From: the human T2T-CHM13v2.0 reference genome, Homo sapiens
DNA: 64,000 nucleotides
Direction: 5' to 3' (one strand)
Assembly (NCBI RefSeq): GCF_009914755.1
Contig: NC_060930.1
Every line of letters begins with the position of its first letter. Position 1 is the stretch's first letter. The translations under genes were made by a program, and so were the position numbers. Of the stretch, positions 1 through 31,280 are shown piece by piece. A model generated the notes under the pieces. It was given only the letters and a program-made list of their open reading frames with translations, had not been told where the DNA came from and did no database searches.

Positions 1-1067
1 CACCAACCAGGGCCTGTTTATATTTCCCCAAGTCCCAGTGCTCATGGGCAACTCTCACTGGTGTCACAATGTCAATATCATAAGTTTTGGCTTTGCAAGG
101 GAAAAGGGGTCCTTCTGCATGATGTCAATCCCTGGGTACAACTCTGCATTCTCCCTGCTGCTCCATAATTTGCTGAACCCAGAAACATCTTGATCCTAAT
201 TATAGTAAATGTGCAGTAACAAGTAGAAGGCACTGTAATGAGGAACAGTTTACTAAGGAGCCTGGGTTTCTTGATTTTTATTTTATTCTCATCCCATCTC
301 CTCCATTCACCACCAAAGCTCAGGAACCAATTTGGAAGAAACATCTGAGAATCTTATCACTTTCTGAACATTTTAAAAGTATACTCTACATTAATAATGA
401 AAGATCATCAAGTGCTAGAATCAAGGGCTACCGTTGGGGTATGGTGTCTAGAACATGGCAGAAGGGGGGCTTCTGGGGTGCTAGTATTGTCTGTTTCTTG
501 ATCTGAGTGCCGGTTGTATGCAAATGAATTAGTTTATACAATTTATTGAGATATTCACTTGTGATTTATTCATTTCTTTGTAAGTATATTTCTTTTAAAA
601 GTTTACTGCCAAATAAAATCCACTGCCACTGCCTCCAGCAGCTCATGTTCTGGAGCCACAGCCTAGATCTAGCTGAGTAGGTTGTGTGCAGCCCTGGCTA
701 TCAGAGTTAAACATTCGTGCTGGGTCCCTAATACTATTTCCAGATATGGTTCCATTAGAAAATAAATGTATTCAAGGAGAGGAAGGCAGCTGATTTTGAT
801 ATCCACCAACCAGCAATGTGGCCTAGCTTAAATAATCATTCTCTGGTCTCCATGCATACCCTTCCCTTCTGAGGGGGCAGTATAGTTCCTCCTGCGAAGG
901 AATGTGCTGAAGTGAGTGGAAGTGGCTGAAACCTAAAGTTCAAGTAAATATTTTTCTAGCCACAAGAGCATTGTTCTTGTGTCAGCTGAGTTACGTAAGT
1001 GGTAGTAAAAAAAAATGAGGGAAGAGGGGAGAACTTCTAATCCTGTCCAGAAGAACTGACCTGGGAG
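1..1067 (-). promoter_or_regulatory. Duplicated block copy 1: putative V1R promoter module, paralog of 30174-31280; its gene would lie left of the window
   Basis: Colinear with 30174-31280. Minus-strand TATAAA at 22-17, TGACA sites at 62-66, 70-74 and 123-127, TCCCTGGGT 129-137, TAATTA 197-202, TAATGA 236-241. The duplication is seen directly; the promoter role is inferred. Confidence 0.55.
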
Positions 1068-1084
1068 TCCATGTTGAGGCTCCA

Positions 1085-1480
1085 TGCCTCCAGCCTCACA
1101 TTCTGTAGGTCAGATGTTCAGTGGTCTTGGCTGGTTTTTCTGCTTCAGTTGTTAGAAGGCTGAAGTCAAGGTGTTGGCTAATTTGAGATTTATCTGGAGG
1201 CTCCGGGGGGAATCTGTTTCTAAGCTTAATTAGGCTATTGACAGAATTCAGTTCCCTGTGTTGGTAGAACTGAAGTTCACTTTTTTCTTGCTATTAGCCA
1301 GGAACGTCTGTTATATCCTTTAGGCTGCCTGTATTCCTCATCATGTTGGCCACTTCTTCAAAGAATGAACGATGCACGAAGAATCTTTCTGACTTCCCTT
1401 TTTGTCTCATCTCTTGCTTCTAAACAGAGAAAGTTCTGTTTTTAAGAATTTATGTGATTACACTGGGCTCATCCTGATAG
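1085..1480. mobile_element. MaLR LTR fragment (MLT1-type)
   Basis: gaaggctgaagtcaaggtgttggc...tctggaggctcc...gacagaattcagttcc resembles the MLT1 consensus. Confidence 0.6.
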
Positions 1481-1556
1481 TTTCTTTATGGTTAAACTAA
1501 GGTTATGAGTTTGTGGGGAGAATACCACAGAGGTAAAGTATCCTTCTCATCACATC

Positions 1557-1665
1557 TGTTACGGACTGAATTGTCCATATGGGGAATTGTCTTTCCACAA
1601 ATTTCATATGTTGAAATCCCTACCTTCAATGTGATGGTATTTGAGGGCGGGGCCACTGGGAGGTA
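1557..1665 (+). mobile_element. MaLR LTR 5' fragment (MLT1A/MST-like)
   Basis: tgttacggactgaattgtcc...catatgttgaaatccctacc...gtgatggtatttg. Confidence 0.55.
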
Positions 1666-2908
1666 AGCATTTATGGCATTAATATTTCAAATGTCGAGAT
1701 GATTTTGCAAGATATCCCTCAATTTTACCCTCATTTAACATATGGTTCTCTGGATTTTTAGCAGACTCCTTGAAGGGGCTTTTTCTTTCAACCCATTCAA
1801 ATCATCTAAGTGGAGTTATAAGATCAATTTAATAAGCTTCTAGAAATAAGAGCAAGGTGGGAAGATACAACAGAGTGAGAAGAGAGAAGAGAGGGAAAGG
1901 GAGAGAGAAAGGGAGAGGGGAAGGGTTGGTGGAGAGAGAGAATCAAAGTTGTCCACAGAAGTTAATAAAAAGGGAATCGAAAAGAGAGTCTGATGGTTGT
2001 TCTGTTCTCCTACTATGAAAGGTAAAATGAAATCTTATGAAAGACTTAAGTTCAGAAATCTAGACACATACATCAAGGCACAAATTCAAAGAATTAGATA
2101 GTGAAACAGGAATCTACTGGGAGTCAACAAATTTTGGTCCTAAGGAATGGATGCAGGAGTTTAAATACTAGTTTTAAATGCTAGGGTAAGACAGTTTTAA
2201 ATCATAATCATAACCCCTCAAATTTTACTGGTTTATTGTCAGATGCTTTTTTTCCCTTGACTATATACATGCATTCTTTATATGTCTACATAATAATCTG
2301 GTTTCACAATTATTTTAAACAGCTGCTTTTTCAGTTAAAACCGGTTTGTTTTTCATGATCATGTTGATGGCTTCCTAGCAGTCAATAGAGTGGTCATATA
2401 ATTTCCCTTTTAGTCATTGTTCTATTTTTAAAGTTTTGATTTTAGGATAATTAATTGGCTAAGGCTTGGCACCCCTTATAGATTAATTTTAGCAACTGAT
2501 AATTTTAAAAATTAAGATATAGTTGGCAAAAATTGTACATATTTATGGAATTACAATACGATGTTTTGGTATATGCAAGCCTTGTGAAATGATTAAAAGT
2601 GACTGACAATTTTGTTTTCAAATTTGTTGTTTCTTTTCACAATATTACTGCTAAAGCTTGAGTAATCTAGATTCTCTGGTATCCATGTACAATCTGGTTC
2701 CACAATTATTTTAGTGTTTTACATTTGCATAACAATAGAGTATAGGTTACATATGTATAAATATCTGAGATCTCTATCTATTTAGGAGAATATTTGAAGA
2801 TTCTTCCCCAAAATTTCAAATAGTTTTCCAATTACATTGTCTTCTGTTTTCAACCTATTATCTTTAAAATTATTTAAATTTTTCCAAACTCTTCTTTTAA
2901 AAAAACAA

Positions 2909-28600: not shown

Positions 28601-28769
28601 ATTGGCAACTCACTACAACAACAAAAACAACACTGATTAATAAATAAAAACTCACAGAATTGTTAAACAGTTTGGTCAAGACCTGGAATATGTTTGTAAG
28701 GAATATCTCAATTCACTTTACTGACTTATTTTCCATCCAAATACTTTGTTCCATCCCCTCGATCTTTTT

Positions 28770-29090
28770 GTTTGTTTGTTTTGTTTATTTTGAGACAGTG
28801 TTCTGCTCTGTTGCCCGGGCTAGAGTGCAGTGGTGTGATCACAGCTCATTGCAGCTTAGACCTGCTGGGTTTAAGCAGTCCTCCCACCTCAGCCCTCAGC
28901 CACTCTCCCACCACAGCAGAGAATACAGGCACATGCCATCACGCCCGGTTAGTTTTTACTTTTTAATTTTTTGTAGAAATGAGGTCTCTCTATGTTGCCC
29001 AGGCTGGTCTCAAACTCCTGAGCTCAAGTGATCCTCCTACCTCAGCCTCCCAAGGTGCTAGAATTACAGGCATGAGCAACCATGCTCAGC
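28770..29090 (-). mobile_element. AluJ
   Basis: Diverged Alu. Confidence 0.8.
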
Positions 29091-29289
29091 ATCTCATCCC
29101 CTCAATCTTTGTGATCATCCTCTTTGCTACTCCTCTGATCACTCCCTCCCAGGTCAACTTATCTAATTCCTACTTCCCACCCTGACTGATATGCTCACTG
29201 TCTCTGAATCTCCTAGATGTTTATCTAGTGTCCTTGGGTCTAGGAGATACAACTGCACAGATTCACAAGAATTAGCTTTGCCTTCAGTC

Positions 29290-29510
29290 ACTCTAAAGTT
29301 CAAGTCTTGGCTTTCCTAATTTGTATCTGCATATTACTTGACCTCTGTAAGACCCAATATTCTCATCTGTAAAATAAGGGCAGTGCTTTGTACTGTACTG
29401 GTCTCTAGTGAGGAATGAGGACTGAAGGAGCTGATGTAGGAAGTGCTTATATATGTGCTTGGCAACTAAGTACTGAAGAACAATTTTCCATAAGGTAACT
29501 ATTAGTATTA
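29290..29510. mobile_element. MIR
   Basis: ttctcatctgtaaaataaggg core. Confidence 0.6.
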
Positions 29511-30124
29511 TTATGATGTGCTTTTTACATCTGTCCTATTCCCCACATCTCAACAATTTTCTAAAAAAGTACACCGTATTATGTTTTGGAGCTAGGGTGT
29601 TAATTTAAAGAAAAATGCAGAATAAATTTAAACATCCTCAGAATACTAAACCTTATTAAAGAAGACAAAAGTGCCACGTAAAGAAAAGATTGAAGGACAC
29701 TAGAGATAATATGCATAGCTTAACTAAAAATTCCAACTGCTAGGAAAGAAAGTGCACAAATGCTAAGGGAAGAATGCAGAGAAAAAGTGCTCCCACACAT
29801 CCAGGCTGACATGTCACTGATGTCTGATGTCACCTATACCTCTCTTCCTTGTATAAGAAGGGGCAGCTCCAGGCACAGTGCATCAAACACTGCTGTACAA
29901 TGGCTCTGGCTCCCTTGTGGACCAGAAAGAAGCAGATGTTTCTGGATGGGAGTTGGGAAATGATCAGCCACCTTCTCCCTGGGCCCTGGAATCTTCCTCT
30001 TCCACAAGTGACAGAAGACCTCAGAATCTTCTCTTTCACTGCCTACCCCTGACCAGCTCTGCCCTGGACAGTCCCCTTCCAAAGCCAAAGGCAGCCCCAA
30101 TCCACAGTTGTCAGGTACACTCAC

Positions 30125-31280
30125 CTGGGGAGTCTGTGCAGCATGCCTCTGGGTGGCTGTTCTGGCAGAGCAGCACCAACCAGGGCCTGTTTATATTTCC
30201 CCAAGTCCCAGTGCTCATGGGCAACTCCCACTGGTGTCACAATGTCAATGTCATAATTTCTGACTTTGCCAAAGGAAAAGGGGTCCTTCTGTACAATGTC
30301 AATCCCTGGGTACAACTCTGCCCTCTCCCTGAGGCTCGATAATTTGCTGGGCCCAGAAACATCTTGATCCTAATTATAGTAAATGTGCAGTAATGAGTAG
30401 AAGGCACTGTAATGAGGAACAGTTTACTAAGGAGTCTGGGTTTCTTCATTTTTACTATATTCTCCTCCCATCTCCTCCATTCACCACCAAAGCTCAGGAA
30501 CCAATTTGGAAAAAAAAAACCTGAGAATCTAGAGTGGTCACTTTCCGAACATTTTACAAGTGTGTTCTACATTGATTATGAAAGATCATTGATTGCCAGA
30601 ATCAGGGGCTTCTCTTGGGGTGTAGTGTCTAGAACATGGCCGAAGTGGGGCCTCTGGTTGCTGGTATTGTCTGTTTCTTGATCCAGGTGCTAGTTTTATG
30701 CATATAAATTAGTTTATACAATTCATTAAGATATTCATTAATGATTTCTGCATTTCTTTGTATGTATATTTCATTTAAAAGTTTACTGCCAAATAAAATA
30801 TACTGCCACTGGCTCTGGAAGCTCATGCCATGGAGTCACAGCCCAGACTAGCTGAGTAGGATGTGTGTAGCCCTGTCTATCAGAGTTAAACCTTCATGCT
30901 GGGTCCCTAATAGCTTTTCCAGAAATGGTTCCATTAGACAATAAAGGGATTCAAGGAGAGGAAGACAGCTGATTTTGATATCCACCATCTAGCAATACGG
31001 CTTAGCTTAAATAATCTTTCTCTGTTCTTCACTCATACCCTTCCCTTTTGAGTGGCCAGTATAGTTCTTGATGCGAAGGAATGCACTAAAGTGAATTCCA
31101 GCTGAGACCTAAAGTTCAGGTAAATATTTTTCTAGACACAAGAGCACCTGTGCTTATGTCAGCTGAGTTAGGTAAGTGGTAGTTTAAAAAAAACAACAAT
31201 AACAAACAAACAAAACAAAACAAAACAAAACAAAACAGGGAAGAGAGGAGGACTCCAAAGGAATGGAATTGACCTGGTAG
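30125..31280 (-). promoter_or_regulatory. Putative promoter and short non-coding first exon of the minus-strand V1R pseudogene (duplicated block copy 2)
   Basis: Minus-strand TATAAA 30195-30190, ~40-nt exon ending CCCCAG|GTGAGT at 30125/30124; four TGACA; TCCCTGGGT 30303-30311; TAATTA 30371, TAATGA 30391 and 30410; matching acceptor ttttctcaaaag| at 22010/22009 just before the V1R ATG. Confidence 0.6.

What the first reader, a model, noticed from the sequence alone, without database searches (positions are those of the whole stretch)
1..31280. ~1.1 kb unique block duplicated 30,173 bp apart with strongly uneven conservation
Positions 1-1067 align with 30174-31280. Hand counts: 1-76 (TATA/TGACA block) 75/76 identical; 181-272 (homeodomain block) 89/92 identical; the spacer 77-180 is about 85% and the distal 361-488 about 83%. 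Two conservation peaks that coincide with motif clusters suggest purifying selection or focal gene conversion on cis-elements after an old tandem duplication. Inference: copy 1 is the promoter of a second minus-strand V1R lying several kb left of this window, so the duplicated unit is promoter plus receptor.
Basis: partly seen in the sequence, partly recalled or inferred. Interest (0 to 1): 0.7.

Follow-up and report, generated by a model that had tools for sequence, protein, structure and literature searches.

The report
Gene-converted promoters of dead V1R genes
Two neighbouring dead pheromone-receptor genes on human chromosome 6 each still carry their old promoter, and a stretch of about 465 bases around it has most likely been copied from one gene to the other long after the genes duplicated, which is a clear but ordinary case of gene conversion.

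Summary
The window edge hides most of it. With 40 kb fetched to the left, the block runs -914..1067 <-> 29208..31280. It is the 5' end of a V1R "gene block", -6491..1067 <-> 19627..31280, whose coding parts are VN1R12P and VN1R13P (Pfam V1R).

Divergence is a mosaic. The baseline is K80 0.33-0.48 in introns and coding ends. The upstream kilobase is 0.155, a 570-bp coding tract is 0.078, and a 465-bp gap-free core (-388..+76) is 0.020. "Peak 2" is not significant on its own.

The core holds a TATA-like box, a putative short 5' exon with a GTGAGT donor, and about 340 bp of intron. By eye it matches mouse V1ri3/4/5 promoters whose start sites were mapped by RACE.

Best reading: nested interlocus gene conversion between fossil V1R promoters, a process proposed for mouse by Stewart & Lane 2007. 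It is a new member of a known kind. A dense TGACA array at the promoter, shared with mouse, is the most interesting lead.

The parts
1..1067 (-). Copy 1 of the upstream (promoter) block, in-window part. The gene strand is minus. Homology to copy 2 ends at about 1067. The block continues left of the window to -914 (5' exon and start of intron; that part cannot be listed here because it lies outside 1-64000).
   Evidence: out-of-window part:
29208..31280 (-). Copy 2 of the whole upstream block (<-> copy 1 -914..1067).
1..76 (-). In-window tail of the near-identical core of copy 1. The full core is -388..+76: 465 columns, 9 mismatches, no gaps, K80 0.020, GC 54%, 0 CpG. Read as an interlocus gene-conversion tract.
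29785..30249 (-). Near-identical core, copy 2 (whole).
77..1067 (-). Upstream flank of copy 1: 86.1% identical to 30250-31280, K80 0.155, statistically uniform. Read as an older homogenised zone or the promoter homology peak.
17..23 (-). TATA-like ATATAAA on the gene strand, copy 1. The mouse V1ri3 start site projects to about -7, just outside the window.
30190..30196 (-). TATA-like ATATAAA on the gene strand, copy 2.
30119..30127 (-). CAG|GTGAGT splice-donor consensus on the gene strand, copy 2 (copy 1: -46..-54, outside the window). It would end a putative non-coding exon 1 of about 40 nt.
   Evidence: the donor is kept in the third copy
441..602 (.). Piece of an old dispersed repeat inside the block (family not named). 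The two copies are 85.1% identical here, the same as the rest of the flank (86.3%).
21027..22031 (-). VN1R13P coding region plus about 55 bp of 5' leader/acceptor. Pfam V1R E = 8e-45; 17 stops in the read frame. Its partner VN1R12P lies outside the window at -6081..-5070 (Pfam V1R E = 4e-30; 11 stops; 83.5% identical overall).
21192..21766 (-). Central coding tract (copy 1: -5913..-5336): 92.6% identical, K80 0.078, against 0.33-0.41 at both coding ends. No third-codon-position excess. Read as a second conversion tract.
23563..24701 (-). Intron homology at baseline divergence (23563-23805 and 23894-24701 <-> -3622..-3363 and -2391..-1591): 65% identical, K80 0.47.
19627..19968 (-). 3' end of the gene block (<-> -6491..-6132): 68% identical, K80 0.43.
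22674..28656 (.). Span of the copy-2 intron holding Alu-type insertions absent at the homologous places in copy 1 (22674-23011, 24717-25051, 25277-25634, 28285-28656). They account for part of the extra length of copy 2.
   Evidence: (multi-copy hits), and the masked list in the hub annotation
31186..31237 (.). (CAAAA)n-type microsatellite present only in copy 2, near the upstream end of the block.
40692..41065 (+). Third, much older copy of the promoter/exon-1 region, 2.9 kb upstream of the plus-strand VN1R11P and inverted as expected. Only the exon-1/donor part (matching copy 1 -67..0) is clearly conserved, 46/68.
41565..41844 (+). Weak collinear match of VN1R11P intron to copy 1 -774..-527 (nhmmer E = 0.0013).

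Best explanation
The 1.1-kb block is the window-truncated upstream end of one of two paralogous V1R 'gene blocks'. Each block consists of a promoter, a short non-coding 5' exon, a 5-8 kb intron and a coding exon. The two blocks belong to the pseudogenes VN1R12P and VN1R13P.

The blocks come from an ancient duplication, with baseline K80 about 0.4-0.5. Since then, parts of them have been homogenised by interlocus (non-allelic) gene conversion at different times:
- the upstream zone -457..1067 (K80 about 0.155-0.16);
- a 570-bp tract in the coding exon (0.078);
- most recently, a 465-bp core (-388..+76; 0.020) covering the proximal promoter, exon 1 and about 340 bp of intron.

What is shown: the anatomy, the mosaic of divergences and their statistical support.

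What is inferred: that conversion made the low-divergence tracts, and that the domain of concerted evolution shrank towards the promoter core as the flanks escaped.

The cis-motifs in the block (a TATA-like box, a TGACA array, one TAATTA) are relics of a once-functional V1R promoter shared with mouse V1ri genes. They are not the cause of today's near-identity.
For: 1. Extent. -914..1015 <-> 29208..31192 at 82.6%. V1R -6081..-5070 <-> 21027..22031 at 82.5%. There are collinear intron matches. Both genes match Pfam V1R and carry many stops. They are each other's nearest relatives in the genome.

2. Mosaic. The best BIC model has three segments: 68.2%, 97.3% and 86.1%. The core has 9 mismatches in 465 columns and no gaps, while the whole block has 127 gap columns. 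0 of 5000 permutations reach the observed value.

3. Baseline. Four separate non-coding segments give K80 0.43-0.48. The coding ends give 0.33-0.41.

4. The coding tract (K80 0.078; 0 of 5000 permutations for 200-500-col windows) shows no third-position excess: 17/15/10 mismatches over roughly 190 sites per phase. Coding constraint therefore does not explain it.

5. The core spans promoter, exon and intron alike. The intron part left of -68 is not conserved in the third copy (10/29), and only -67..0 is (46/68).

6. A dispersed-repeat piece inside the upstream flank is as similar between the copies (85.1%) as the rest of the flank (86.3%). That level is therefore not element-specific selection.

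7. In the 77-180 zone, copy 2 has lost 4 of 11 words shared by copy 1 and mouse. This means neutral decay there.

8. Tract sizes (465-570 bp) and a GC-rich core (54% against 35-41% in the flanks) fit what is reported for human non-allelic conversion. Passages of Harpak et al., bioRxiv 10.1101/135152, give a mean tract length of a few hundred bp, 880 bp for HMM-inferred tracts, and GC bias.

9. Stewart & Lane 2007 (PMC1955453, section 6 read) describe the same two-peak block architecture in mouse and propose conversion of promoter peaks longer than 500 bp.
Against: No other species could be examined. The defining test of conversion, paralogs clustering within species inside the tract only, was therefore not done.

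Past selection on the promoter is real. About 200 bp upstream of the start site share ordered words with mouse V1ri promoters. TGACA sites are strongly enriched across the core, including its intron part (-366, -361, -345, -164, -64). Some of the low divergence could therefore be constraint.

Conversion between sequences only about 86% identical is expected to be rare. The model needs repeated events that kept the core similar.

The upstream zone's right end coincides with the end of all detectable homology, so its 0.155 cannot be compared with a baseline on that side.

The nine core mismatches are clumped, with 7 in -227..-131 (simulated p about 0.009, window chosen after the fact). The core may be composite.

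The codon-phase test assumes frame 0 of copy 2. The Pfam match supports this only for residues 50-287.
Confidence: 0.7

Rival explanations
1. Purifying selection. The core is still a functional element in the human lineage, such as a promoter or first exon of an unannotated transcript, or an enhancer built on the TGACA array. Both copies would then be held nearly invariant.
For: The TGACA/TGTCA array has 8 sites in 569 bp against about 1-1.4 expected, and 0 of 2000 shuffles reach that count. The two cores are the only places in 104 kb with 7 or more sites per 569 bp. The promoter part shares ordered words with mouse V1ri3/4/5. The donor region is conserved in the third copy.
Against: - The receptors are dead, with 17 and 11 in-frame stops.
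- 98% identity over 465 bp exceeds the conservation of the coding exon (83.5%).
- The tract's limits do not follow the mouse-shared promoter. 77-205 is mouse-shared but only 86-97% identical between copies, and copy 2 has lost 4 shared words there.
- The intron part has no counterpart in the third copy.
- No Rfam family was found.
- No Pfam match was found for 4 of the 6 ORFs of at least 40 aa that overlap copy 2's core region. The other two were not scanned.
- No RefSeq transcript or functional element is listed there in the hub table.
Confidence: 0.13
2. The duplication is younger (K about 0.16-0.2, as in the upstream flank and whole-gene average), and the intron and coding ends are over-diverged. 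Causes could be locally high mutation, misalignment or partial replacement. The core would simply be a cold spot.
For: The upstream flank (0.155) and the overall V1R identity (83.5%) are similar. The core has no CpG, which lowers its mutation rate somewhat.
Against: Six independent segments, four non-coding and two coding ends, agree on K80 0.33-0.48. The flanks are equally CpG-poor: 0 CpG in the left flank and 5 in the right. A 20-fold difference in rate across a sharp boundary, with no gaps inside and 127 gap columns outside, is not what mutation-rate variation gives.
Confidence: 0.05
3. Chance or artefact. Either the unevenness is sampling noise, or it is an assembly error that copied one paralog over the other.
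For: Inside the window alone the signal is marginal (p about 0.03-0.1).
Against: With the full block, 0 of 5000 permutations reach the observed value. The core still differs at 9 sites and sits in differently diverged, collinear flanks, which an assembly collapse would not produce. This is a complete T2T assembly according to the hub note.
Confidence: 0.02

Closest known systems
Mouse V1R 'gene blocks' with a coding homology peak and an upstream promoter homology peak (Stewart & Lane 2007, BMC Genomics 8:253, PMC1955453; abstract, section 6 and passages read)
   Same: The architecture is the same. [quoted passage not shown] That island contains the start site and a short non-coding exon whose donor is a recurrent motif. 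The same mechanism, gene conversion homogenising promoter peaks, was proposed there.
   Different: Here the genes are pseudogenes in a species without a working vomeronasal system. The promoter zone is more conserved than the coding exon: its divergence is about 0.36 of baseline, against 0.8-0.9 for most mouse promoter peaks. A nested core at K80 0.02 is present. The start site sits near one end of the peak, not the middle.
Mouse V1ri3, V1ri4 and V1ri5 promoters (Michaloski et al. 2011, PLoS One 6:e29065, PMC3247230; passages plus supplementary files S2 part 1 and S3 read)
   Same: Eleven short words occur in the same order in the human copy-1 gene strand (+202..+13) and in the last roughly 205 nt of V1ri3. 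They include TAATTA, TTTCTGG, three TGACA-type sites and the TATA-like ..TAAACAGG. The RLM-RACE start site of V1ri3 projects to human position about -7.
   Different: The comparison was made by eye and by word look-up only, because mouse sequence could not be put into an aligner here. The words were chosen after seeing the mouse text. Human copy 2 has lost four of them. Orthology to the I subfamily is inferred, not shown by a tree.
Non-allelic gene conversion between human gene duplicates (Harpak et al. 2017, bioRxiv 10.1101/135152; passages read)
   Same: Sharply bounded tracts of a few hundred bp with much lower paralog divergence than their surroundings. GC is elevated in the core. There is evidence that conversion slows as copies diverge.
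   Different: That study used multi-species genealogies to call tracts, whereas here only one genome was available. The paralogs here are far more diverged (baseline about 0.45) than those analysed there.

Membership tests
V1R gene block with upstream promoter homology peak (Stewart & Lane 2007) | V1R coding exon | tested here: met
   Pfam PF03402: E = 8.4e-45 (VN1R13P) and 4.3e-30 (VN1R12P). Both are disabled by stops.
V1R gene block with upstream promoter homology peak (Stewart & Lane 2007) | [quoted passage not shown] | tested here: met
   -457..1067 has K80 0.02-0.16 and lies 4.6 kb (copy 1) or 7.7 kb (copy 2) upstream of the coding homology. The intron is at 0.43-0.48. Homology stops at 1067/31280.
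V1R gene block with upstream promoter homology peak (Stewart & Lane 2007) | Transcription start site maps inside the peak; short non-coding 5' exon spliced to the coding exon | tested here: inconclusive
   No human expression data are available here. Indirect support: TATA-like box at 23..17, donor CAG|GTGAGT at -46..-54, and a pyrimidine-rich ..CTCAAAAG about 35 bp before the ATG. The mouse V1ri3 RACE start site projects to about -7.
V1R gene block with upstream promoter homology peak (Stewart & Lane 2007) | Promoter homology shared within a subfamily, weak or absent across subfamilies | tested here: met
   Only two copies exist genome-wide. The more distant VN1R11P (66% in coding sequence) keeps only a weak match (nhmmer E = 1.3e-7; 46/68 at exon 1/donor, about 50% elsewhere).
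Interlocus (non-allelic) gene conversion tract | Sharply bounded segment with much lower paralog divergence than both flanks | tested here: met
   Core 98.1% against 67.8% and 86.1% in the flanks. BIC segmentation supports it, and 0 of 5000 permutations reach the observed value. Coding tract 92.6% against 69.8% and 73.9%.
Interlocus (non-allelic) gene conversion tract | Genealogy switch: paralogs cluster within species inside the tract and by orthology outside | not testable with these tools
   No other primate or mammalian genome is held. Only the window's own genome could be searched.
Interlocus (non-allelic) gene conversion tract | Low divergence independent of functional class of sites | tested here: met
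   Mismatches are flat over codon phases in the coding tract (17/15/10). The core covers promoter, exon and 340 bp of intron. A repeat-derived piece is as similar as its surroundings.
Interlocus (non-allelic) gene conversion tract | GC enrichment of converted sequence (biased conversion) | tested here: inconclusive
   Core GC is 54% against 35% and 41% in the flanks. The coding tract is 41-42% against 33% and 42%. The direction of change could not be polarised.
Selectively constrained regulatory element | Conservation between orthologues or distant paralogs beyond the neutral level | tested here: inconclusive
   The promoter part +202..-7 shares ordered words with mouse V1ri promoters (by eye), and -67..0 is kept in the third copy. 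The intron part of the core is not kept (10/29), and copy 2 has lost 4 shared words in 77-180.
MEIS/TALE homeodomain binding-site array | Cluster of TGACA(G)-type cores (consensus recalled, not from a call) bound by the factor in vivo | not testable with these tools
   Site enrichment was shown. Binding was not tested. The only link is that Meis2 is the factor associated with V1R expression in mouse (passages of PMC11630819).

The most novel reading that the evidence does not exclude
V1R promoters carry a start-site-proximal array of TGACA (TALE/MEIS-type) sites that is the direct target of Meis2, the factor that marks V1R-expressing neurons. The array is old enough to be shared by mouse V1ri, and independently V1rh, promoters and by the fossil human VN1R12P/13P promoters.

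Conversion keeps homogenising these promoter cores even after the genes have died. That would make promoter homogeneity in V1R subfamilies a mechanistic by-product, not something selected for equal competition between promoters.
Probability: 0.3. Interest if true: 0.6.

Novelty: new member of a known kind. Interest (0 to 1): 0.38.

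Why it matters
This is a clean human example of the two-peak V1R gene-block architecture, and of promoter homogenisation that had been proposed, not proven, in mouse.

The youngest tract has K80 0.020, with a 95% interval for the mismatch fraction of 0.009-0.037. By recalled primate divergences this is well below human-macaque (about 0.06), so it is younger than the catarrhine loss of vomeronasal signalling. Conversion therefore went on in promoters of dead genes. That argues the homogenisation does not need selection.

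The fossil promoters also act as a 90-Myr phylogenetic footprint of mouse V1ri promoters. The footprint points to a TGACA array and one TAATTA as candidate elements for the still-unknown control of V1R transcription.

Practically, it shows how a window edge can turn a 465-bp tract into a 76-bp 'motif peak'.

Tried and rejected
- Homology right of the block. Sensitive blastn of 1068-12000 against 31281-43900 found only Alu-type matches (39 hits, none collinear). The window self-comparison also found none.
- More copies in the genome. There are none for 1-1067 or -914..0 beyond the pair. Intron segment -2391..-1591 matched only itself at that tool's sensitivity.
- My first guess that 424-625 is an L1 3' end was dropped. 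The six fetched loci share only a roughly 140-165 bp unit with fairly constant ends, so the family is left unnamed.
- RNA families in copy 2 (29200-31300): one sub-threshold chance hit only (S15 leader, E = 0.34).
- ORFs of at least 40 aa overlapping 29750-30480: six short ORFs. Four of them were scanned against Pfam, with 0 matches.
- PRDM9-type 13-mer (pattern recalled): no site in either block or either coding region.
- TAAT cores in 181-272: 3 observed against 1.3-1.7 expected; 458 of 2000 shuffles reach that count.
- CNTCTGG, the Michaloski MV3/MV7 core: 1 observed against about 0.3 expected; 557 of 2000 shuffles.
- O/E-like TCCCNNGGG[AT]: none in either core region.
- A fourth identity segment (77-337 at 91.6%) is not supported by BIC (1550.7 against 1545.1).
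- Literature. VN1R12P, 13P, 11P and 10P appear in 14 papers, and the 12 listed are GWAS or expression listings (listing only). A four-term search for Meis2, vomeronasal, motif and promoter found 5 papers, with 4 listed after merging copies of one work. None concerned V1R promoters (PMC9525060 passages). Neither V1R-promoter paper mentions Meis, and TGACA occurs there only in primers or a probe. Figure logos and Stewart & Lane's additional files were not seen and may hold a TGACA-like motif.

Full report
OBSERVATION

A self-comparison of the window finds one long non-Alu match: 1-1015 against 30174-31192, at 86.6% over 1024 columns. A global alignment carries the homology on to about 1067/31280, across a microsatellite present only in copy 2. 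Beyond that point nothing aligns, even with a sensitive search.

- 1-76: 75/76.
- 181-272: 89/92.
- 77-180: 89/104.
- 361-488: 105/127.

The block has only these two copies in the genome. One sub-part, about 441-602, is a piece of an old dispersed repeat. It has 19 further weak matches on other chromosomes and a unit of roughly 140-165 bp. I could not name its family, and my first guess of an L1 3' end was not borne out.

WHAT THE WINDOW EDGE HID

The window's own genome can be read, so I fetched 40 kb to the left. The duplication continues there. Coordinates below 1 lie left of the window.

| Segment | Copy 1 | Copy 2 | Identity |
|---|---|---|---|
| Upstream block | -914..1015 | 29208..31192 | 82.6% |
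| V1R genes | -6081..-5070 | 21027..22031 | 82.5% |
| Intron A | -3622..-3363 | 23563..23805 | about 65% |
| Intron B | -2391..-1591 | 23894..24701 | about 65% |
| 3' of the gene | -6491..-6132 | 19627..19968 | 68% |

The order is collinear throughout. Both genes match Pfam V1R (E = 8e-45 and 4e-30) and carry 17 and 11 stops in the read frame. They are each other's closest relatives in the genome. The next closest is VN1R11P, at 66%.

The unit is therefore a V1R 'gene block', 7.6 kb in copy 1 and 11.7 kb in copy 2. Part of copy 2's extra length comes from Alu insertions at non-homologous places. The gene lies 5.1 kb away.

THE IDENTITY PROFILE

Across the whole upstream block there are 1964 ungapped and 127 gap columns, and identity is far from uniform.

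| Segment (copy 1) | Identity | K80 | Notes |
|---|---|---|---|
| -914..-458 | 67.8% | 0.434 | left flank |
| -457..-389 | 85.5% | 0.162 | shoulder |
| -388..+76 | 98.1% | 0.020 | 9 mismatches, no gap, perfect runs of 161, 117 and 67 |
| 77..1067 | 86.1% | 0.155 | right flank |

None of 5000 permutations reaches the observed maximum for windows of 100, 200 or 450 columns, or the longest run. A change-point model with three segments is best by BIC.

The second peak (181-272) is not supported once the core is set aside:
- 214 of 5000 permutations reach the observed value for a window width chosen after the fact.
- Chi-square over ten bins gives p = 0.10.
- A fourth segment is not favoured by BIC.

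Inside the window alone the evidence for unevenness is only marginal (133-627 of 5000).

The coding exons are mosaic too. A central 570-column tract is 92.6% identical (K80 0.078). The N-terminal and C-terminal parts are 69.8% and 73.9% (K80 0.405 and 0.331). 0 of 5000 permutations reach the observed value for 200-500-column windows. Mismatches are spread evenly over the three codon phases in all three parts (17/15/10, 25/26/29, 13/15/15).

Four non-coding segments give K80 0.43-0.48. So there is a consistent baseline near 0.4-0.5, with three islands of lower divergence at 0.155, 0.078 and 0.020.

ANATOMY OF THE CORE

Read on the gene (minus) strand, the core has:
- a TATA-like ATATAAA at 23..17;
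- a consensus donor CAG|GTGAGT at -46..-54;
- the same two features in copy 2, at 30196..30190 and 30127..30119.

A pyrimidine-rich ..CTCAAAAG lies about 35 bp before the V1R ATG, where the coding-side homology begins.

The core thus covers the last roughly 80 bp of promoter, a putative exon 1 of about 40 nt, and about 340 bp of intron. It is 54% GC, has no CpG, matches no Rfam family, and the four of its six short ORFs that I scanned have no Pfam match.

A profile of the block finds a third, much weaker copy upstream of the plus-strand VN1R11P, inverted and collinear as expected:
- 41065..40692, E = 1.3e-7;
- 41844..41565, E = 0.0013.

Only the exon-1/donor part is clearly kept there (46/68). 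The rest is about 50%, against 43% mean and 50% maximum for shuffled controls. Left of -68 there is no similarity at all.

LINK TO MOUSE PROMOTERS

Stewart & Lane (PMC1955453; section 6 read) describe mouse V1R gene blocks with this same layout. There is a coding peak, low-homology sequence, and a 0.5-1 kb upstream peak that contains the RACE-mapped start sites. They suggest that gene conversion homogenises these peaks, because the peaks are too long and unbroken for binding-site selection.

Michaloski et al. (PMC3247230) give 39 mouse promoters ending at RLM-RACE start sites in their file S2. In part 1 of that file, all three I-subfamily records (V1ri3, V1ri4, V1ri5) show, by eye, the same ordered series of elements as human copy 1. 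Eleven short words occur in the same order at +202..+13. They include TAATTA, TTTCTGG, TCAGCAAAT, TGACATCA, GCAGAAGGA and ..TAAACAGG.

The V1ri3 start site falls 19 nt after that last word, which projects to human position about -7. This is where the TATA-like box predicts it.

I chose these words after seeing the mouse text, and I could not run a formal alignment because mouse sequence could not be entered into the tools. This evidence is therefore strong to the eye but not quantified.

Copy 2 has lost four of the eleven words, all in the 77-180 'spacer'.

MECHANISM

I read the low-divergence islands as interlocus gene-conversion tracts of different ages. The reasons:
1. The boundaries are sharp, and the core has no gaps while its surroundings are gap-rich.
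2. The core runs across promoter, exon and intron alike, and its intron part has no deep conservation.
3. The coding tract shows no codon-position signature.
4. A repeat-derived piece in the upstream zone is as similar between the copies as its neighbours (85.1% against 86.3%).
5. Tract lengths and the GC-rich core fit what is reported for human non-allelic conversion (passages of 10.1101/135152).

The nesting of 0.020 inside 0.155 inside about 0.45 suggests a domain of concerted evolution that shrank as the flanks escaped. This last step is inference.

The nine core mismatches are clumped, with 7 in -227..-131 (simulated p about 0.009, window chosen after the fact). The core may be two very young tracts around an older patch.

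For dating I rely on recalled primate divergences. A paralog K of 0.020, with a 95% interval for the mismatch fraction of 0.009-0.037, lies between the human-gorilla and human-orangutan levels and below human-macaque. The last event would then fall within the apes, after the catarrhine loss of vomeronasal signalling (a recalled date). The baseline would place the duplication near or before the eutherian radiation.

RIVALS

- Present-day constraint on the core. I cannot exclude this without other species. The TGACA array and the mouse-shared promoter speak for past function. But the tract's limits do not follow the shared promoter, the genes are dead, and copy 2 is losing shared words just outside the tract.
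- A younger duplication with over-diverged introns. Six concordant baseline segments contradict this.
- Chance or artefact. The permutations and the nine remaining differences exclude this.

A LEAD WORTH FOLLOWING

TGACA/TGTCA occurs 8 times in -388..180 of copy 1, against 1.0-1.4 expected, and 0 of 2000 shuffles reach that count. Six of the sites are on the gene strand. The two cores are the only places in 104 kb with 7 or more sites per 569 bp. By eye, three of the four sites in the last 150 nt of mouse V1ri3 have counterparts in human.

In the 39 mouse promoters, TGACA+TGTCA is counted 151 times. Five composition-matched 5-mer pairs give 53-103. These are crude controls and the sequences are paralogous.

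My by-eye count covers the nine complete records of S2 part 1, out of 39 (five H, three I, one F). It gives 24 sites in the last 200 nt (1800 nt in all) against 14 in the first 800 nt (about 7150 nt). That is about 13 against 2 per kb. The enrichment appears in both the H and I subfamilies, which share no promoter homology according to Stewart & Lane.

Meis2 is reported as the factor overwhelmingly associated with V1R expression (passages of PMC11630819). That MEIS proteins bind TGACAG is recalled, not tested.

Neither promoter paper mentions Meis or a TGACA motif in its text. A four-term search for Meis2, vomeronasal, motif and promoter found nothing on V1R promoters. Figure logos and additional files were not seen.

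VERDICT

The promoter-plus-receptor inference is right. The 'two peaks on cis-elements' reading is only partly right.

This is a new, human, pseudogene example of a known architecture and a known process: V1R promoter peaks and gene conversion. Its interest is modest, raised somewhat by two things. It gives evidence that conversion continued in dead promoters. It also yields the TGACA/Meis2 lead.

Noticed in passing
window 40692-41065 and 41565-41844 (upstream of VN1R11P, 43950-44854): A third, ancient copy of the V1R promoter/exon-1 region, in inverted orientation. It keeps the GTGAGT donor and the adjacent TGACA site but not the TATA-like box. This implies a gene model of exon 1, a 2.9-kb intron and the coding exon for VN1R11P.
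   Followed up: partly
copy 1 -388..180 and window 29785-30353: Dense TGACA/TGTCA array: 8-9 sites per 569 bp, the densest in 104 kb. It is partly shared with mouse V1ri promoters and is also seen near the start sites of mouse V1rh promoters. Possible MEIS-type sites.
   Followed up: partly
window 77-180 vs 30250-30353: Four words shared by copy 1 and mouse V1ri promoters are mutated in copy 2. Copy 1 therefore keeps the ancestral state and copy 2 has decayed in this stretch.
   Followed up: partly
window 2933-4235, 12075-12852, 49455-49936; left of window -26181..-25368, -21899..-21126, -20715..-20121: A low-copy local repeat family, 67-74% identical and in both orientations, scattered through the cluster. 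Its nature was not determined.
   Followed up: no
window 22042-22141: The 100 bp just 5' of the VN1R13P coding homology match -23638..-23534, -15415..-15317 and, inverted, 36644-36732, at 70-74%. This could be a small repeat or a relic of further V1R leaders.
   Followed up: no
window 61034-62024: About 1 kb that is self-similar on both strands (74-77%). It is a complex internal repeat and coincides with the longest masked stretch in the hub list.
   Followed up: no
copy 1 -1562..-970 and window 26518-26930: Both introns carry a low-complexity, AT-dinucleotide-rich stretch at the homologous place ((AT)n at 26521-26575 in copy 2). It aligns in many registers.
   Followed up: no
copy 1 -227..-131 (window 29946-30042): Seven of the nine core mismatches fall in this 97-bp patch (7.2% divergence, similar to the coding tract's 7.4%). 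It is flanked by runs with 0 mismatches in 161 bp and 2 in 207 bp. The core may be composite.
   Followed up: partly
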